A stretch of 64,000 bases of DNA from Arcanobacterium sp. (lineage in GTDB: Bacteria; Actinomycetota; Actinomycetes; Actinomycetales; Actinomycetaceae): contig JALELI010000125.1 of assembly GCA_022768785.1 (NCBI GenBank), forward strand, positions 1,865 to 65,864, given 5' to 3'. A program made the position numbers and the translations under genes. Shown here piece after piece: positions 26,314 to 63,064 of the stretch; within the stretch, counting starts at the first letter, position 1, and each line of letters starts with the position of its first letter. The notes beneath the pieces are model-generated. The model searched no databases and was not told where the DNA came from. It worked only from the letters and a program-made list of their open reading frames with translations.

Positions 26314-26403
26314 TGCAACCACTAGTGCCAGTAGAAATTAGTTCAAAAATTCCCCCATGCGGGCTGTAGCATTAGACACGGCAGCACACAGCGGGAGGTG
26401 CAG

Positions 26404-27729
26404 ATGGATTCCGAGCAGAAATCGGTGCCGCATGGCATGCAGATCATGGTGGGTAGCGCGCTTTTTGGGGTGATGCTTTTTGCTCTACATTCAGTGGCTG
26501 ATGTGTTTACCCCACTCTTTCTTGCACTCACGCTAGTGCTCACGGTGCGGCCGATCACACGAAAACTACGAGCACATCATGTGCCGGGGTGGGTGGCTGC
26601 CACAATCTCATTCCTCACTCTGGTTATCCTTTTTGGTGGTGTGGTTTCACTCCTGGTGTGGGCATTCACTCCAGTGCCGCAAACCCTTGTGAACTACAGT
26701 GCTAATTTTGAGCGCACGCTCAACGCCGCACGTGATTTCTTGCAGTCGAAAGGTGTGCACACAGCAGATCTGTCGATCTATCTGAATCAGCTAAATTTCA
26801 ATTCAGTGATTTCGTGGGCGTGGAGTTTGCTCGATTCATTGCGTTCGGTGGGCGGCCTGCTCGCTATCGTGATCGTGGCTTTGCTGTTTTTCACAGTAGA
26901 TACCACCACGTTGTTCTCGCGCTCGAATATCACTCGCCGGGCTCATTCGCATATTGCACAGGCCCTCGAAGGGTTTGAGAAGCGAGTGCGGCACTACTGG
27001 ATTATATCCACAGTATTTGGCCTGATTGTGGCAGTGATTGATGTGTTTGCGCTGAGCATTTTGGGGGTGCCGTTGCCGCTCACGTGGGGAATGTGGGCTT
27101 TTATCACGAACTACATTCCAAATTTGGGTTTTGTGATCGGCGTGATTCCGCCAATGATAATGGGGCTCGTGGATTCGGGTTGGCAAACGCTGGTGTGGGT
27201 GATGGTGCTCTACTCGGTAATCAACGTGGTGATCCAAACGTTTATTCAGCCGAAGCTCACTGGCGATGTTGTAGGGCTATCTCCCTCAGTTACTTTCGTT
27301 TCACTTGTACTATGGACTTCTGTGGTGGGGTGGCTAGGATCGCTACTCGCCGTGCCGCTCACGTTATTTTTTAAAGCTCTCCTCGTGGATTCTGATCCAC
27401 GCACCCAATGGCTCGATGTTTTCCTCATCTCAGAGAGCGATACGCGCCGCAAAGCAGAAGCAGGGCTATATGATGCCGATCCTCCGGCCGCGGCTGCTGA
27501 AGTGGATTTCCATGCCACAGCTAGTTTGGCAGCGCTGAGGCAGCAGCGGCGCCAGCGGCAGCGCAATGCCACAGAGCGGCCGAGCCGGAGTATGCGTTGG
27601 CAGCTAGCCACCTGGAGTGCCAACATTCGCCGTTCCCGTTCTCAGACTGCTGAAGGGCGTATTACCACACAAACTACACAAAAAGAAAGTGACCCCAATG
27701 AAGGCGCATCCGGTGAAAAGCGTGACTGA
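26404..27729 (+). CDS. AI-2E family transporter
   Basis: Multiple TM helices, AFITNYIPNLG, IQPKLTGDVVGLSP, LLAVPLT. Confidence 0.9.
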   Translation: MDSEQKSVPHGMQIMVGSALFGVMLFALHSVADVFTPLFLALTLVLTVRPITRKLRAHHVPGWVAATISFLTLVILFGGVVSLLVWAFTPVPQTLVNYSANFERTLNAARDFLQSKGVHTADLSIYLNQLNFNSVISWAWSLLDSLRSVGGLLAIVIVALLFFTVDTTTLFSRSNITRRAHSHIAQALEGFEKRVRHYWIISTVFGLIVAVIDVFALSILGVPLPLTWGMWAFITNYIPNLGFVIGVIPPMIMGLVDSGWQTLVWVMVLYSVINVVIQTFIQPKLTGDVVGLSPSVTFVSLVLWTSVVGWLGSLLAVPLTLFFKALLVDSDPRTQWLDVFLISESDTRRKAEAGLYDADPPAAAAEVDFHATASLAALRQQRRQRQRNATERPSRSMRWQLATWSANIRRSRSQTAEGRITTQTTQKESDPNEGASGEKRD

Positions 27730-29797
27730 GGTGCACTGGATTCCATACGTTGATTCACAAGCGGATCAGGCTGCACAGAGTACGCCCACACCTGCGGCGC
27801 GCTCGCGCACAGCTCAGCACAAAAACGGCAAGCGGCAGCAGCGACGCCATACAGTGAGCAAAATTATTTGGCGCACGCTTTTAGTGTTGTTGGCCACTGC
27901 AGTGGGTGTAGTTGTGGGGGCATATGTGATGGCAAGCGTGCCCGATCCGGCAAAACTGGCGTTGCCTAAAGCTGGCACGATTTATTTTGCAGATGGCACC
28001 ACTCCGATTGGCACACTAACGACTCCGCACCGCACTGTGGTGCCCGCTGAAAAAATAGCTCCAGTGATGCGCGCAGCAGTGATTGCTAGTGAAGATCCTC
28101 TATTTGAACGGCGGCCCGCCGCAAATTTTGCGGGTATGGCAAGCCGTTGGTGGGAATCCCTGTGGGGTGGTGGCGGAGCGAGCGAAGAATCACTCACAGA
28201 TAAATTTGTGCAAGCGGCAAGTGCAAATGCCAAAGCGCCAGTGTTTGAAGTACTGCGTGATGCTTTTTTGCCGGTGAAGATTGATCATGCTCTGAGCAAA
28301 GAGCAAATCGTGGCAGCGTATCTCAACACCGCCTATTTTGGCCGTGGTGCATACGGGGTGGAAGCTGGTGCACAAGCATATTTTGGTGTGAGTGCGCAAA
28401 GTTTATCCACTGCACAAGCGGTGTTGCTAGCTGCTGTACTGCCGGCCCCCTCCGCTTGGGATCCTGCCTATGATAGCGCCCAGGCCCATAAGCAGTTTGA
28501 AGCGGTAAAAGTGGCGATGGTGAAGGCCGGTGTACTCAGCCAAAGTGCTGCTGATGCAGTTGAGTTTCCTGCGGTGTTACCGTATTCGGGCGTAGGTGCT
28601 GTGAGCGGTGCTAATGGCTATTTAGTATCGATGGTGCGCGAAGAGCTTCTCACTGTAGCTCGCCTTGCTCCCGCAGTGATTGAGCGGGGTGGGATTAGCG
28701 TGGTTACCACGATTGATGCAGCTACTCAGCAGAAAGCGGTGAACGCCGTCAATGCAGCAGCGAACGGAAGACCTGCGAATTTTCAAACTGGTCTTTTTGC
28801 GATGAACCCTAAAAATGGGGAAGTGCTGGCGGCTTATGGAGGCGCAGATTTTGCGAAGCGCCGCGTGAATAACGCCACAGATCAGCGTGTTCCGGCGGGA
28901 AGCCCCTTTAAAATCTTTGGTTTAATCGAGAATTTTGAAAATGATCTCGGTGTGAACAACACCTACTACCACTACATCTCAGGATATGTGTATGGCGAAA
29001 ATTATCTCAGCATTCCTGATGTGCCTGGTGGAGTGCTGAGCATCGCAGATGCTACAAAATTTAATATCAACGATGTGTTCGTGCGGCTCGGTGGCGATGT
29101 GGGCACCGATACGATTATGAAACGGGCCGTTGCTTTGGGAATTCCTGCGCAGGCGTCTGGCCTCACGGATAAAAAAGCTAACCTCCTTGGCGCTGCGCGA
29201 GTGACGGCGCGCGAGATGGCCCGCGCGTATGCTGCAGTGGCGAATAACGGTGTGCTTACGATGCCGCACGCTGTGCGAGAAGTGCGTGATGCGGCTGGTG
29301 CAGTTATTTACACAGGTGGTGCCCGCGAAACTCAAGTGATGAAAGCCGAGACGGCGAAACTTTCCACGTATTTGCTGCAAACTCCGTTTACGAAAGATGG
29401 TGTGGCTTATGCAAATGGCCACGCCTTCGCAGAACGACACCCCGCTGCGGGATTGCCCTCTAACGGCGTAGACACTGAGGGTGCATGGTTTGTAGGCTAT
29501 ACGCCGTCGATCGTAACTGCAGTAGTGGGAACGCAACTGAGAGCTGATGGGACTTTAGCTGAATTGCAGCCATTCGGTGGGGCAGAGAATGTGGCGGGAA
29601 GCGGATATCCGCTGCAGGTATGGAGCGCTTTCATGCAGGCAGCCAGCGCGCATAAAACTGCCGAAAAATTTCCCGATGTGACCGAACTCGTGAAGAAAAC
29701 CACAAAGACTAATCCCGCTCCGGGCAGCGGAGCCCCCGAAGAGGGCGGAGCTTCCCAAGGGCACAGTGGATCTGCTGCTGGTGGATTAGCTGGCTGA
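27698..29797 (+). CDS. Class A penicillin-binding protein (PonA1 position) with degenerate catalytic motifs
   Basis: TM then GT51-like (EDPLF, YLNTAYFGRGAYGVEA) and transpeptidase-like (GSPFK, AWFVGYTP) domains; start codon uncertain. Confidence 0.85.
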   Translation: MKAHPVKSVTEVHWIPYVDSQADQAAQSTPTPAARSRTAQHKNGKRQQRRHTVSKIIWRTLLVLLATAVGVVVGAYVMASVPDPAKLALPKAGTIYFADGTTPIGTLTTPHRTVVPAEKIAPVMRAAVIASEDPLFERRPAANFAGMASRWWESLWGGGGASEESLTDKFVQAASANAKAPVFEVLRDAFLPVKIDHALSKEQIVAAYLNTAYFGRGAYGVEAGAQAYFGVSAQSLSTAQAVLLAAVLPAPSAWDPAYDSAQAHKQFEAVKVAMVKAGVLSQSAADAVEFPAVLPYSGVGAVSGANGYLVSMVREELLTVARLAPAVIERGGISVVTTIDAATQQKAVNAVNAAANGRPANFQTGLFAMNPKNGEVLAAYGGADFAKRRVNNATDQRVPAGSPFKIFGLIENFENDLGVNNTYYHYISGYVYGENYLSIPDVPGGVLSIADATKFNINDVFVRLGGDVGTDTIMKRAVALGIPAQASGLTDKKANLLGAARVTAREMARAYAAVANNGVLTMPHAVREVRDAAGAVIYTGGARETQVMKAETAKLSTYLLQTPFTKDGVAYANGHAFAERHPAAGLPSNGVDTEGAWFVGYTPSIVTAVVGTQLRADGTLAELQPFGGAENVAGSGYPLQVWSAFMQAASAHKTAEKFPDVTELVKKTTKTNPAPGSGAPEEGGASQGHSGSAAGGLAG

Positions 29798-29945
29798 GAG
29801 CACAGGTACAACAAAGGCTGAATGTAGTGAGGGAGCCTGCTCACTTTTGTGTGCGCATAGTGAGATTTTGCGATAAAATTACCGCTTGTATGTGGTCTGT
29901 ATACCTCAATTTGAGTGATGGTGCGCAGGCCATGTGCATTGCATG

Positions 29946-30001: not shown

Positions 30002-30307
30002 ATGCGTGATTATGAAATGATGATCATTCTCGATCCTGAAGTGGACGAGCGCAATCTGCAGTCGATGCTCGATAAGCTGCTTTCCGTGGTGCCAGAGCAA
30101 GGTGGCACTCTTGTGAAAGTAGATGTGATGGGCCGGCGCGTGCTTGCTTATCCGATTAACAAGAAGAGCGAAGGCATCTATGTGGTGGTTTATATGAACA
30201 CCACACCTGATACTGCTCAAGAACTCGATCGGCAGCTCAACCTGAACGAATCAATTTTGCGCACAAAACTGCTGCGCTACGAAGCTCCTTCCGTGAAGAA
30301 AGACTGA
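30002..30307 (+). CDS. rpsF: 30S ribosomal protein S6
   Basis: [12 protein letters not shown]...[17 protein letters not shown]...[12 protein letters not shown]. Confidence 0.98.
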
Positions 30308-60995: not shown

Positions 60996-62882
60996 TCAGT
61001 TAGTTTTGTTGGTTCCAGTGGAGCCCCCTGTGCCGCCAGAACCGTTGCCGGATCCCGAGCCGTTCTGCCCACCTGTAGATTCACCTGGTTGAGCTGGCTG
61101 ATCTGGCGTTGGCGCCGGTGGCGGAGTGGGAGTAGGCACTGGCCCCAACGAAACAGTGAGTTTCACACGGGTATTGTATGGTTGTTTGCCAGCTCCAGGG
61201 CTCTGATCAATCACGGTGCCCTCGGGCTCTTTAGAATTCACACGGTCCGTGTCGAACTGCAGCTTCAGCGTGGTGAGTGCTTTCTGTGCGTCGTCAAGCG
61301 ACATTCCTACAAGCGATGTGAGAGTTACTTCGCCCGAAGCAACTGAAAGCTGGATCGGAGTATCTTTTGTTACTGTTGTGCCTTTAGCTGGATCAGTTTG
61401 CACCACAGTGTCTTTAGCCATACCAGGTTCATCAACGGTGTTGGTGTTCCCCGCTGTGAGCCCAGCTTTCTGTAAAACGTCTCGCGCCTCCTGCTGGGTG
61501 AGGCCAGCGACGTCGGGCACGGCGACCTTCCCTTTGCCCGCAGAGAAATGCACGGTAACGGTGGATCCTGGCTTCACGAGTGCTCCGATAATCGGATCCG
61601 AGGAAACGTAGAGCCCCTCTGCAATTTTGTCGTCTTCCACGGCACTGCCCACGGCGATCTTGAGGCCGGCATCTTGCAGTGCGGAGGTGGCAGCGGTTTG
61701 ATCTTTTCCTTCGAGATTGGGCACTTTCACCATTGTGACGGCGGGTTGGTGAGTTCCTAAAATACCGGAGCTCACAATTGCGAACCCGAGCCCCCCAATT
61801 GCGGCGAGTACCACCAGCACGATAAGCGTCACCCACAAGCCTTTGTGAGAGCGGCGCTCCTCTTCCACAGCGGGAGTGATATCAGTGGTGGTGGTGATAA
61901 AAGAATCGTGAACGGGGTTTGCAGTTGGAATCACCGGATTGACGGCAGTGCTGGCGCCACTTGCCACCAGCGTAGGGGCACTAATGCGGGTTTCCCAAGT
62001 GCCAATAGCAGGAGCTTCCACCGGTTCCCCGCGCACGGCTGCCAGGAGATCGCCGCGCATCTCGGCCGCCGTCTGATAGCGCTCGTCACGTTTCTTTGCC
62101 AGTGATTTCATCACCACGCGATCAATTGCCTCGGGGATATCCGGAGCCACAGATGAAGGAGCTTTGGGCTGTTCTGAAACGTGCTGATAAGCCACTGCCA
62201 CTGCAGAATCCCCTTGGAACGGTGGCTTCCCCGTGAGTAATTCATAGAGTAAACACCCTGTGGAATACAGATCGGAGCGGGCATCTACCACTTCTCCGCG
62301 CGCCTGCTCGGGAGAGAGATATTGAGCTGTGCCCACCACGGAGTTTGTGGAGGTCATGGTGGCAGAAGAATCGGCCACCGCGCGAGCGATACCGAAATCC
62401 ATCACTTTCACTTTGCCATCTTGCGTGATCATGATATTGCCGGGCTTGATGTCGCGGTGAATGATGCCTTCGTAGTGGGAATACTCCAATGCGGAGAGCA
62501 CTCCCACTGTAATCTGCACAGCTTCGTTGATCGGAAGTGCCTGGCCATTGCCGAGCAGCTTAGAAACGGTGCGGCCTTTCACATACTACATCACGATATA
62601 GGGGAGGGCTACAGTACGGCCGTTCTCGCTGAGTACTTTTTCTTCGCCGGTATCATAAATAGCTACGATTGCCGGGTGGTTAAGGGCAGCAGCTGACTGT
62701 GCTTCGCGCCGAAAACGCGCTAAAAAAGTGGGGTCGGAAGCTAGATCTGAGCGCAGCACTTTAATCGCCACTGTGCGCGAAAGGCGGGTGTCGTATCCGA
62801 TATGCACTTGTGCCATACCGCCACGCCCAATGAGGTCGCCCACCTCATATCGTCCGCCAAGAATGTGTGGGATATCCGTCAT
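60996..62882 (-). pseudogene. pknB: PASTA Ser/Thr kinase PknB interrupted by an in-frame TAG at codon 99 (62586-62588)
   Basis: GRGGMA, VAIKVL, then YIVM-TAG-YVKG, then HRDIKPGN, DFGIAR, GTAQYLSPEQ, TM and 3 PASTA repeats, all in one frame. Confidence 0.9.
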
Positions 62883-63064
62883 ACGAGAGCACTCCTTATA
62901 CGGCGCCGAGCTACACGTGCGCCATCTTCGTTAATACTGCACCATCTGTGTTGTGGATTGCATCTGTGGAATGTTGCGATTGCATTACAAAGGTCTGTGA
63001 GGCATGGGCCTACAAACCGAGAGTGATGATTCTTTCTGCGTAAAAAGTTCGTGCGATACATCAT
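62879..63064 (-). CDS. Putative 61-aa ORF in the pknA position
   Basis: ATGA overlap with the pbpA stop and ATGA overlap with the pknB start; no recognisable homology. Confidence 0.4.
   Translation of the reverse strand: MMYRTNFLRRKNHHSRFVGPCLTDLCNAIATFHRCNPQHRWCSINEDGARVARRRIRSALV

What the first reader, a model, noticed from the sequence alone, without database searches (positions are those of the whole stretch)
27698..29797. The PonA1-position class A PBP looks like a double pseudo-enzyme
Seen, transpeptidase domain: GSPFK keeps SxxK, but SxN reads KF-NIN (Ser lost) and KTG reads PAAG-LPS-NG (Lys, Thr and Gly lost). Seen, glycosyltransferase domain: ED..F is kept, but motif 2 GxSTxTQQ reads ASEESLTDK and motif 3 RKxxE reads EVLRD. 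PbpA in the same window keeps all three transpeptidase motifs. The ORF is full length with its TM, so it appears maintained. Known: these motifs are required for aPBP catalysis, and this locus (upstream of rpsF) normally carries PonA1. Inference: the protein may have become a non-catalytic scaffold, glycan- or beta-lactam-binding protein or sensor.
Basis: partly seen in the sequence, partly recalled or inferred. Interest (0 to 1): 0.65.

Follow-up and report, generated by a model that had tools for sequence, protein, structure and literature searches.

The report
Catalytically dead class A PBP, conserved
In a group of at least eight uncultured Arcanobacterium species, the cell-wall synthase gene next to rpsF still encodes a full-length, well-folded protein under purifying selection, but both of its active sites have lost their key residues, so it most likely has a non-enzymatic role that is not yet known.

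Summary
ORF 27698-29797 (+), 699 aa, is a TM-anchored protein with a GT51 domain and a transpeptidase domain (Pfam 1.9e-32 and 7e-17; AlphaFold pLDDT 80.6; Foldseek hits to S. aureus PBP2 and M. tuberculosis PonA1).

- **Lost motifs:** GT motif 2 reads ASEESLTDK and motif 3 reads EVLRD. SxN reads NIN and KTG reads LPS.
- **Kept residues:** only E132-D133 and S402..K405 survive.
- **Orthology:** the gene is the positional ortholog (CCA-AI-2E-X-rpsF-ssb-rplI) of intact class A PBPs (aPBPs) in 11 other Arcanobacterium species.
- **One origin:** eight species-level lineages carry the degenerate form, and they are monophyletic (100/100) in both the gene tree and the flank-gene tree.
- **Basal versus later losses:** KTG and the SxN serine are gone in all eight. 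The residues that survived were later replaced independently. The GT catalytic Glu was replaced at least five times (I, Q, Q, V, N), and the SxxK Ser/Lys are lost in five lineages.
- **Selection:** every copy is full length. dN/dS is 0.08-0.24, against 0.02-0.07 for intact aPBPs. Within the window's own species there are 7 synonymous and 2 non-synonymous polymorphisms.
- **Genome context:** the genome keeps one intact aPBP, two bPBPs and two SEDS proteins.

I read this as a maintained double pseudo-enzyme, probably an extracytoplasmic scaffold or regulator. The exact role is unknown, and I found no natural precedent in the searchable literature.

The parts
27698..29797 (+). Whole gene: degenerate class A PBP ortholog, 699 aa. 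Alternative in-frame starts are GTG 27617 and GTG 27713; other annotations use the 694-aa form from 27713.
   Evidence: ORF listed. The ATG start matches the N-termini of orthologs G005 and G007 (MK..SVTEAxWIPY).
27698..27862 (+). Cytoplasmic tail (aa 1-55), disordered. It lacks the YPRxGxGxxRRWxPSWR motif that intact orthologs conserve.
   Evidence: pLDDT is below 50 for residues 1-48. Alignment. The tail is the least constrained part.
27863..27940 (+). Transmembrane anchor (aa 56-81).
   Evidence: AF2 helix 50-78 and a hydrophobic stretch.
28004..28519 (+). GT51 (Transgly)-like domain, aa 103-274.
   Evidence: PF00912 at 1.9e-32 and 112.6 bits. Intact relatives score 190-218 bits.
28088..28135 (+). 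GT motif 1 region SEDPLFERRPAANFAG. E132-D133 are kept and the distal NxG/HxG is lost.
   Evidence: In orthologs the Glu is Q, N, V or I.
28148..28204 (+). Clade-specific WWESLWGGGG followed by the relic of GT motif 2 (ASEESLTDK in place of QGGSTLTQQ).
   Evidence: E153, W156, E163 and S165 are invariant in six degenerate proteins and absent from all intact ones.
28247..28261 (+). Relic of GT motif 3 (EVLRD in place of GKxKE). The second catalytic Glu is Asp.
28295..28327 (+). GT motif 4 (SKEQIVAAYLN), retained. It lies in the best-conserved structural core.
28796..29509 (+). Transpeptidase-like domain, aa 367-604. It is 'type A', shared with P0004 and P0133.
   Evidence: PF00905 at 7e-17. Foldseek to M. 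tuberculosis PonA1 TP domain 5cxw, TM 0.82 normalised to the target, rmsd 3.1. Domain trees.
28898..28912 (+). SxxK retained (GSPFK; S402, K405).
   Evidence: It reads MPFG, MTFS or QPFS in five other lineages.
29057..29071 (+). Relic of SxN (KFNIN). The Ser is Asn.
29441..29467 (+). Relic of KTG (PAAGLPSNG). Lys, Thr and Gly are all replaced.
   Evidence: Lost in all eight degenerate lineages.
26398..27729 (+). Upstream AI-2E family transporter gene. It overlaps the start of the aPBP-like gene by 32 nt and is the conserved neighbour in all species.
30002..30307 (+). rpsF, the conserved downstream neighbour, followed by ssb, rpsR and rplI.
29826..29845 (+). Terminator-like hairpin 29 nt after the stop codon. 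This is a consensus match only.
   Evidence: The number of such sites in the region is not above the shuffled expectation.

Best explanation
The gene encodes a naturally inactivated ortholog of the PonA1-type class A PBP, a 'pseudo-aPBP'. It keeps the membrane anchor and both folded extracytoplasmic domains but can no longer polymerise lipid II or cross-link stem peptides.

**Shown**
- It is the positional and phylogenetic ortholog of intact aPBPs.
- One ancestral event in an Arcanobacterium subclade removed KTG, the SxN serine, the QQ of GT motif 2 and the distal part of GT motif 1.
- The remaining catalytic residues then drifted independently.
- The folded domains stay under purifying selection in all eight lineages.
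- Peptidoglycan synthesis in this genome can be covered by one intact PASTA-bearing aPBP, by RodA-PbpA and by FtsW-FtsI.

**Inferred**
- Selection is acting on a non-catalytic function of the extracytoplasmic fold. The cytoplasmic tail is unconstrained and has lost the motif that intact orthologs conserve.
- The most likely mechanism is protein-protein scaffolding or regulation within the wall-building machinery. One candidate is restraint of a RipA-like NlpC/P60 endopeptidase. Mycobacterial PonA1 does this in vitro through the C-terminal part of its transpeptidase domain. The other candidate is binding of glycan strands or stem peptides without turnover.

**My odds**
- Non-catalytic and functional: about 0.75.
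- The specific hydrolase-regulator or scaffold mechanism: about 0.25.
For: - **Motif losses.** Verified against intact orthologs and PDB enzymes.
- **Fold.** Retained with pLDDT 80.6 and pTM 0.77. Foldseek matches 3dwk (TM 0.61/0.68) and 5cxw (target-normalised TM 0.82).
- **Synteny.** CCA-AI-2E-X-rpsF-ssb-rplI is identical in degenerate and intact species.
- **Phylogeny.** The degenerate clade is monophyletic at 100/100, on a stem of 0.65-1.3 substitutions per site.
- **Catalytic Glu.** The GT catalytic Glu was replaced at least five times independently. The SxxK Ser/Lys are lost in five of eight lineages.
- **dN/dS.** It is 0.076 [0.037-0.119] for the folded part in G009-G012, 0.116 [0.088-0.152] in G005-G007 and about 0.24 in G000-P0004. 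These values resemble the neighbouring AI-2E gene at 0.20.
- **Polymorphism.** The window's species shows 7 synonymous and 2 non-synonymous polymorphisms. By my own binomial calculation this gives P of about 0.001 against neutrality.
- **Intact ORFs.** Every cluster member read is full length; together these sequences were seen on more than 30 contigs.
- **Other synthases.** One intact aPBP, two bPBPs and two SEDS proteins are present.
- **Candidate partner.** A RipA-like protein is present.
- **Precedent.** The PonA1-RipA interaction is described in PMC2912383.
Against: - There is no biochemical or expression data.
- The window's own copy still has E132-D133, D188 and the S402/K405 dyad, so residual or altered activity in this species is not strictly excluded.
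- I could not inspect model coordinates, and the region around motif 2 is modelled at low confidence (pLDDT 56-74). Compensating residues therefore cannot be ruled out structurally.
- Selection is 2-7 times more relaxed than on intact aPBPs.
- The proposed partner (the RipA-like protein) is only an analogy from mycobacteria.
Confidence: 0.7

Rival explanations
1. The protein is still an enzyme. Either the window's copy keeps weak GT activity through E132-D133 plus D188, or the former GT cleft has been rebuilt around clade-specific invariant residues (W152, E153, W156, E163, S165). The GT51 fold resembles lambda lysozyme (from memory), so the new activity could be glycan cleavage or another reaction on glycan strands.
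For: E132-D133 and an acidic residue at the motif-3 position are kept in the window. Twenty-three residues are invariant in six degenerate proteins and absent from every intact ortholog. Several cluster at aa 152-165, next to the former donor site, and two of them are new glutamates. Pseudoenzymes with relocated catalytic residues are a known caveat (abstract of PMC10211241).
Against: The canonical Glu is Q, N, V or I in five of eight orthologs, and the motif-3 acid is Ser in two. Any conserved activity therefore cannot use them. Motif 2, which lines the donor site, is remodelled in all lineages. The 150-180 region is modelled with low confidence. No homology to any other enzyme family was found.
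Confidence: 0.1
2. It is a ligand sensor or decoy. The transpeptidase-like domain of 'type A' copies (the window, P0004 and P0133) keeps the Ser-Lys dyad and still binds D-Ala-D-Ala stem peptides or beta-lactams, covalently or not. It would report on or sequester them without cross-linking.
For: S402 and K405 are retained in three lineages separated by saturated synonymous divergence (dS about 1.8). The TP fold is well predicted. From memory, PBP-derived sensors exist elsewhere, for example BlaR1/MecR1 and PASTA kinases.
Against: KTG and the SxN serine are needed for efficient acylation in PBPs (established enzymology), and they are absent in all eight lineages. The Ser and Lys are themselves lost in five lineages. 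The cytoplasmic tail that would have to transmit a signal is unconstrained and has no domain.
Confidence: 0.1
3. It is a slowly decaying relic with no function of its own. The ORF stays open by chance, or because its translation is coupled to the overlapping upstream AI-2E transporter gene or matters for expression of the downstream ribosomal-protein genes.
For: The protein evolves much faster than its neighbours. It is 52-55% identical to G005/G007, where flanking proteins are 81-94% identical. dN/dS is 2-7 times higher than for intact aPBPs. The gene overlaps the upstream gene by 32 nt.
Against: A roughly 2.1-kb ORF stays open in eight species-level lineages, and none of the cluster members read (seen on more than 30 contigs) is truncated. 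dN/dS is 0.08-0.24, with confidence intervals far below 1. Polymorphism is 7 synonymous to 2 non-synonymous. In six sequences, 177 positions are invariant, and they concentrate in the fold cores. Translational coupling would not constrain the amino-acid sequence across 650 codons.
Confidence: 0.07

Closest known systems
Mycobacterial PonA1 (PBP1) and the actinobacterial PBP1A family (TIGR02074), as represented by intact orthologs in Arcanobacterium and Trueperella
   Same: The locus is the same, upstream of rpsF-ssb-rpsR-rplI. The architecture is the same: cytoplasmic tail, TM anchor, GT51 domain, linker and transpeptidase domain. The predicted fold is the same. The phylogeny nests the protein inside Arcanobacterium orthologs.
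   Different: GT motifs 2 and 3, the distal part of motif 1, and motif 5 are lost, as are SxN and KTG. The TIGR02074 score is about half the cut-off. The conserved cytoplasmic YPRxGxGxxRRWxPSWR motif and the Pro-rich C-terminal tail of intact orthologs are gone. The rate of evolution is several times higher.
Degenerate LytM factors EnvC/NlpD and the non-catalytic NlpC/P60 protein RipD of M. tuberculosis. These are pseudo-enzymes of cell-wall metabolism, cited from memory and not tested here.
   Same: The concept is the same. A peptidoglycan enzyme fold has lost its catalytic residues and is kept for a regulatory or binding role in the cell envelope.
   Different: Those are derived from hydrolases and have a single domain. 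Here a bifunctional synthase has lost both activities. No partner or ligand is known.
Catalysis-independent roles of PBPs shown with engineered active-site mutants: B. subtilis PBP2B (PMC5656894) and binding of RipA by the M. tuberculosis PonA1 C-terminal region (PMC2912383)
   Same: These show that a PBP body can serve as a scaffold or regulator without its own chemistry. The PonA1-RipA contact maps to the transpeptidase domain. The equivalent domain is the more strongly conserved one in the G005-G007 comparison here.
   Different: Those proteins are active enzymes in nature. Here the inactivation is natural, affects both domains, and is fixed across a clade.
Monofunctional or partly functional relatives: MtgA-type GT51 enzymes and E. 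coli PBP1C (from memory)
   Same: They are members of the GT51/aPBP superfamily with a reduced set of activities.
   Different: They keep at least the GT active site. This protein has neither site intact.

Membership tests
Class A PBP (bifunctional GT51 + transpeptidase; TIGR02074 PBP_1a_fam) | Architecture of N-terminal TM anchor, GT51 domain, linker and penicillin-binding transpeptidase fold | tested here: met
   Pfam Transgly at aa 103-274 and Transpeptidase at aa 367-604. AF2 pLDDT is 80.6 with a TM helix at 50-78. Foldseek top hits are full-length aPBPs.
Class A PBP (bifunctional GT51 + transpeptidase; TIGR02074 PBP_1a_fam) | Orthology with characterised-type aPBPs, by conserved locus and phylogeny | tested here: met
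   Gene order is identical in 8 degenerate lineages and 4 intact genomes. The protein nests within Arcanobacterium orthologs.
Class A PBP (bifunctional GT51 + transpeptidase; TIGR02074 PBP_1a_fam) | GT51 motif 1 with the catalytic Glu (EDxxFxxHxG) | tested here: inconclusive
   E132-D133-x-x-F are kept in the window, but the distal NxG/HxG is lost (RRPAA). The Glu is Q, N, V or I in five of eight orthologs.
Class A PBP (bifunctional GT51 + transpeptidase; TIGR02074 PBP_1a_fam) | GT51 motif 2 (GxSTxTQQ) | tested here: not met
   It reads SEESLTDK. Among the 120 best homologs, 116 keep a canonical or near-canonical motif 2; only this protein and its three nearest relatives lack it.
Class A PBP (bifunctional GT51 + transpeptidase; TIGR02074 PBP_1a_fam) | GT51 motif 3 with the second catalytic Glu (RKxxE; KxKE or KxRE in these actinobacteria) | tested here: not met
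   It reads EVLRD. The Lys is Arg and the Glu is Asp. The Glu position is Ser in G009 and G012.
Class A PBP (bifunctional GT51 + transpeptidase; TIGR02074 PBP_1a_fam) | Transpeptidase SxxK with the nucleophilic Ser | tested here: met
   It reads S402-P-F-K405. It is not conserved in the clade, where MPFG, MTFS and QPFS occur.
Class A PBP (bifunctional GT51 + transpeptidase; TIGR02074 PBP_1a_fam) | Transpeptidase SxN | tested here: not met
   It reads N456-I-N458.
Class A PBP (bifunctional GT51 + transpeptidase; TIGR02074 PBP_1a_fam) | Transpeptidase KTG | tested here: not met
   It reads L586-P-S588. The motif is lost in all eight degenerate lineages.
Class A PBP (bifunctional GT51 + transpeptidase; TIGR02074 PBP_1a_fam) | Curated family score cut-off | tested here: not met
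   TIGR02074 scores 266.5 bits against a cut-off of 508.75.
Class A PBP (bifunctional GT51 + transpeptidase; TIGR02074 PBP_1a_fam) | Measured GT and TP activity, and penicillin binding | not testable with these tools
   This needs lipid II polymerisation and Bocillin-FL assays.
Pseudoenzyme (homolog of an enzyme that lacks catalytic residues yet is maintained) | Homologous fold with key catalytic residues missing | tested here: met
Pseudoenzyme (homolog of an enzyme that lacks catalytic residues yet is maintained) | Maintained by purifying selection, so not a pseudogene | tested here: met
   dN/dS is 0.08-0.24 with bootstrap intervals below 0.25. Polymorphism is 7 synonymous to 2 non-synonymous. 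ORFs are open in eight lineages.
Pseudoenzyme (homolog of an enzyme that lacks catalytic residues yet is maintained) | Demonstrated absence of catalysis and a demonstrated alternative function | not testable with these tools
   No biochemistry or genetics is available, and all carriers found are metagenome-assembled genomes.

The most novel reading that the evidence does not exclude
After losing synthase chemistry, the former GT51 donor cleft was rebuilt around clade-specific invariant residues (W152, E153, W156, E163, S165). The protein now has a new ligand-binding or catalytic site acting on glycan strands, for example as a glycan-end sensor or cleaving module that controls the single remaining aPBP. 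Separately, its transpeptidase-like module exists in two deeply diverged forms, and one form has been exchanged between species by recombination. This would make it a new kind of cell-wall regulator derived from an aPBP, not a passive scaffold.
Probability: 0.12. Interest if true: 0.8.

Novelty: new variant of a known kind. Interest (0 to 1): 0.6.

Why it matters
Class A PBPs are prime antibiotic targets, and whether they have roles beyond catalysis has been debated for a long time. So far the evidence comes from engineered active-site mutants and from interaction studies such as PonA1-RipA.

This case is a natural experiment. One whole subclade of Arcanobacterium, with at least eight species-level lineages, has kept the PonA1-position protein for a long evolutionary time after abolishing both active sites. 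That implies the protein body itself carries a function that selection maintains.

It gives a clean handle for finding that function. Candidate approaches are partner screens, peptidoglycan-binding assays, and comparison of sister species with intact and dead orthologs.

It also shows that these bacteria live with a single functional aPBP plus two SEDS-bPBP pairs. On the practical side, annotation pipelines call these proteins 'penicillin-binding protein' or 'transglycosylase domain-containing protein'. That label would mislead inventories of beta-lactam targets.

Tried and rejected

2. **Active-site geometry.** The AF2 model's coordinates are not exposed to the Python box. I could not measure distances or look for compensating residues. 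Only pLDDT, secondary structure and Foldseek results were usable.

3. **Literature.** Four searches for natural, catalytically dead class A PBPs found only engineered mutants and general pseudoenzyme reviews. Absence from this library does not prove novelty.

4. **Earlier scan notes.** Searches by words and by sequence gave nothing on this protein.

5. **Rejected hypothesis: the window's transpeptidase part was imported.** The TP part of G000 is only 47% identical to G005, where the flanks are 81-94% identical. The AU test rejects the species grouping for the TP part (p = 1.8e-5). After adding P0133 and P0134, the simpler reading is different. The window's 'type A' is ancestral and vertical, and 'type B' was exchanged between the G005/G007 and G009/G012 lineages.

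6. **Rejected: assembly or annotation artefact.** Three other contigs from the window's species (one NCBI assembly and two public sequencing runs) carry the same gene with only 1-2 amino-acid differences.

7. **Rejected: a third, compensating aPBP.** Each of the eight Arcanobacterium genomes checked with the Transgly profile, and the window's own genome, has exactly two Transgly genes.

8. One script failed because of file naming. One ignored minus-strand loci. One MAFFT run timed out. All three were repeated correctly.

9. **Saturated comparisons.** dN/dS between the window and G005/G007/G009 is unreliable because dS is saturated (NG86 failed). I relied on the closer pairs, on G000-P0004 with a caveat, and on within-species polymorphism.

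Full report
**What is there**

The region holds one long ORF on the plus strand. It runs 27617-29797 from the first GTG. The start that matches the orthologs' N-termini is ATG 27698, which gives 699 aa.

- Pfam finds a Transgly (GT51) domain at aa 103-274 (1.9e-32, 112.6 bits) and a Transpeptidase domain at aa 367-604 (7e-17).
- NCBIfam's PBP_1a_fam model scores 266 bits against a cut-off of 508.75.
- The best PDB sequence matches are class A PBPs.
- An AlphaFold2 model built on a 17-sequence alignment has mean pLDDT 80.6 and pTM 0.77. It shows a disordered cytoplasmic tail (1-48), a TM helix (50-78) and two well-folded domains.
- Foldseek returns full-length aPBPs (S. aureus PBP2 3dwk, TM 0.61/0.68) and the M. 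tuberculosis PonA1 transpeptidase domain (5cxw, target-normalised TM 0.82, rmsd 3.1).

**Check of the observation**

Alignment with intact orthologs places them on the canonical motifs.

GT domain:
- Motif 1 keeps E132-D133-x-x-F but loses the distal NxG.
- Motif 2, QGGSTLTQQ, becomes ASEESLTDK.
- Motif 3, KxKE, becomes LRD. The Lys is Arg and the second catalytic Glu is Asp.
- Motif 4 is kept.
- Motif 5 loses its arginines.

TP domain:
- SxxK is kept as S402-P-F-K405.
- SxN reads N-I-N.
- KTG reads L-P-S.

PbpA at the end of the window keeps STFK, SCN and KTG. Among the 120 best homologs in a database of 5.8 billion proteins, only this protein and its three nearest relatives show loss of several motifs.

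**Organism and genome background**

The window lies in a 1.93-Mb, 129-contig assembly (96.5% complete). The GTDB genus contains a genome whose ortholog equals the NCBI protein of Arcanobacterium ihumii. Close relatives are labelled 'Arcanobacterium sp.' or 'Actinomycetaceae bacterium' MAGs.

The peptidoglycan-related genes in the genome are as follows.
- There are exactly two GT51 genes. One is this gene. The other is an intact aPBP on contig C69 with EDQRF, GGSTITQQ, RKLNE, STFK, SIN, KTG and a C-terminal PASTA domain.
- There are two class B PBPs and two SEDS proteins.
- There is one L,D-transpeptidase and two NlpC/P60 proteins. One of the NlpC/P60 proteins has the RipA architecture: signal peptide, long coiled coil, Pro-rich linker and NlpC/P60 domain.

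**Orthology**

The gene order CCA-adding enzyme, AI-2E transporter, aPBP(-like), rpsF, ssb, (rpsR), rplI is identical in four genomes with the degenerate form and four with an intact form. It is also identical in the contigs that carry P0004, P0133 and P0134. From memory, it also matches the M. tuberculosis ponA1 ... rpsF arrangement.

**How widespread, and how it arose**

Of the 16 species representatives of the genus, five carry the degenerate form: the window's genome, G005, G007, G009 and G012. Their Transgly HMM scores are 113-118 bits. The other eleven keep the motifs, and the four of them scored with the Transgly profile reach 207-218 bits. One of the eleven is truncated by a contig end, and one was not matched by my motif-3 regular expression.

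Metagenomic proteins add three more lineages: P0004, and P0133 and P0134.

- In an ML tree the eight degenerate proteins form one clade (100/100), nested among Arcanobacterium orthologs, on a long stem.
- A tree of the flanking genes also unites the eight species (100/100). Its topology is (P0134,(P0004,((window,(G005,G007)),(P0133,(G009,G012))))).

Mapping the motifs onto this tree gives the following.

| Feature | State across the eight lineages |
|---|---|
| KTG, the SxN serine, the QQ of motif 2, the NxG of motif 1 | Lost in all eight, so lost on the stem |
| GT catalytic Glu | E in the window and G007; I, Q, Q, V and N elsewhere; at least five independent replacements |
| Motif-3 Glu | E in P0134 and P0133; D in four lineages; S in two |
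| SxxK Ser and Lys | Kept in the window, P0004 and P0133; lost in five lineages |

After one inactivating episode, the surviving catalytic residues stopped being protected. This is the strongest sequence-level argument that catalysis is gone across the family. It also argues that the residues kept in the window's copy are leftovers rather than signs of activity.

**Maintained or decaying?**

All eight lineages have open frames of 631-709 codons. Every cluster member read is full length (694; 701-709; 696-698 aa), and together these sequences were seen on more than 30 contigs.

| Comparison | dN/dS |
|---|---|
| G009-G012, whole gene (dS 0.14) | 0.165 [0.104-0.250] |
| G009-G012, without the cytoplasmic tail | 0.076 [0.037-0.119] |
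| G005-G007 (dS 1.1) | 0.116 [0.088-0.152] |
| Intact paralog, same two genome pairs | 0.023 and 0.072 |
| Intact ortholog pair | 0.044 |
| Window versus P0004 (dS about 1.8, near saturation) | about 0.24 |
| Neighbouring AI-2E transporter | 0.20 |

By domain, the TP-like part is the most constrained in G005-G007 (0.064), and the cytoplasmic tail is essentially unconstrained.

Four contigs of the window's own species give three haplotypes, with 7 synonymous and 2 non-synonymous segregating codons. About three quarters of random changes would be non-synonymous. By my own binomial calculation from these counts, P is about 0.001.

Across six degenerate proteins, 177 positions are invariant. Of these, 78 are shared with intact orthologs. 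The best-preserved stretches in the sliding-window comparison are fold-core segments such as aa 181-260, which holds YLNxAYFGRxAYG. Another 23 are clade-specific and absent from every intact sequence.

The segments most diverged from intact enzymes are exactly those that build the active sites. These are aa 141-200, the stretch from motif 2 to motif 3 (which I take to be the GT 'jaw'), and aa 401-460, from SxxK to SxN. The gene is therefore under real, if 2-7 times relaxed, purifying selection. It is not a pseudogene.

**How it most likely works**

What is shown:
- A membrane-anchored, extracytoplasmic, two-domain aPBP body is conserved without its chemistry.
- The cytoplasmic tail has lost the YPRxGxGxxRRWxPSWR motif that all intact orthologs share. 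The C-terminal Pro-rich tail is gone as well.
- Selection therefore acts on the folded ectodomains.

What is inferred:
- The protein works by binding, either to other wall enzymes or to peptidoglycan.
- The best precedent is mycobacterial PonA1. [quoted passage not shown] Full-length PBP1 inhibits RipA-RpfB synergy in vitro (PMC2912383). PonA1 has also been suggested to nucleate elongation complexes (PMC4483258).
- A RipA-like protein exists in this genome, but that only shows the idea is possible.

My odds are about 0.75 for 'non-catalytic and functional', about 0.25 for a hydrolase-regulating or scaffolding mechanism specifically, about 0.1 for a remodelled or residual enzymatic site, about 0.1 for a stem-peptide or beta-lactam-binding sensor or decoy, and about 0.07 for a functionless relic.

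**Comparison with what is known**

By descent the protein belongs to the aPBP family: the fold, the architecture and the orthology tests are all met. By function it fails the family's defining features. GT motifs 2 and 3, SxN, KTG and the curated score cut-off are not met.

I found no report of a natural aPBP dead in both domains. The nearest concepts are these:
- engineered catalysis-independent roles of PBPs (B. subtilis PBP2B, PMC5656894);
- hydrolase-derived pseudo-enzymes of the envelope (EnvC/NlpD and RipD, cited from memory).

I therefore rate it a new variant of a known kind.

**Side observation**

The TP-like module exists in two deeply diverged forms.

| Type | Sequence marks | Carriers |
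|---|---|---|
| Type A | SP(F/Y)K, NxND, (L/I)PS | Window, P0004, P0133 |
| Type B | M(P/T)F(G/S), AVNS, QASSATD, plus a 'GPEEAPLDLP' insertion | G005, G007, G009, G012 |

- Type B occurs in two lineages that are not sisters in the flank tree.
- In the TP part, G005 is 72% identical to G009 but only 47% identical to its sister, the window. In the GT part the pattern is reversed, 49.5% against 69%.
- An AU test on the TP part rejects the species grouping (window, G005, G007), with p = 1.8e-5.
- The simplest reading is one inter-species recombination of the TP-like part. The window's own copy looks vertical.

**Limits**

I had no access to the model's coordinates. Codon-model software was not available, dS is saturated for the deeper comparisons, and all carriers found are metagenome-assembled genomes.

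Noticed in passing
window 28796-29797; L037-L040, L045, L053: The transpeptidase-like part exists in two deeply diverged forms. Type A is in the window, P0004 and P0133. Type B is in G005, G007, G009 and G012 and carries a 'GPEEAPLDLP' insertion. Type B sits in two lineages that are not sisters, and the AU test rejects the species grouping for this part (p = 1.8e-5). This suggests inter-species recombination of half the gene.
   Followed up: partly
window 27698-27862, compared with L014-L020: Intact orthologs across Arcanobacterium and Trueperella share a juxtamembrane cytoplasmic motif, YPRxGxGxxRRWxPSWR, and a long Pro-rich C-terminal tail. The degenerate clade has lost both. Instead, the window, G005 and G007 share an N-terminal 'SVTE(A/V)xWIPY' motif of unknown meaning.
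   Followed up: no
L012/L013 (G009, G012), first ~45 codons: The cytoplasmic tail of the degenerate protein has dN/dS of about 1.8 between two very close species (43 codons, small sample), while the rest of the protein is at about 0.08.
   Followed up: no
L012/L013, GT part (aa 60-200 in window numbering): The GT 'jaw' region of G009 and G012 is only 30-48% identical to that of any other degenerate copy, and its branch in the GT tree is 1.4 substitutions per site. Both catalytic acids are gone there (N and S). This is either a second burst of change or an import from an unsampled lineage.
   Followed up: no
P0018, P0029, P0023 (homologs): A few otherwise intact actinobacterial aPBPs show single catalytic-motif changes. 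The motif-3 'KE' reads 'QQ' in P0018 and P0029, and KTG reads QTG in P0023. These could be alignment noise or further partial inactivations.
   Followed up: no
G000 contig C101, L050 1498-2844 (minus strand): A RipA-like protein of 448 aa, with signal peptide, long Ala/Gln-rich coiled coil, Pro-rich linker and C-terminal NlpC/P60 domain. It is a candidate partner by analogy with mycobacterial PonA1-RipA.
   Followed up: partly
G000 contig C69 (L001): The only intact aPBP of the genome runs off the contig end inside its C-terminal PASTA domain, so its full length is unknown in this assembly.
   Followed up: no
window 62586-63064 (earlier notes e1-5244602 and e1-5244603): Earlier notes report an amber codon in pknB, private to this assembly, and a missing pknA in the rodA-pbpA-pknB operon. 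In mycobacteria PknB phosphorylates the PonA1 tail (from memory). I did not check whether the loss of pknA tracks the degenerate-aPBP clade.
   Followed up: no
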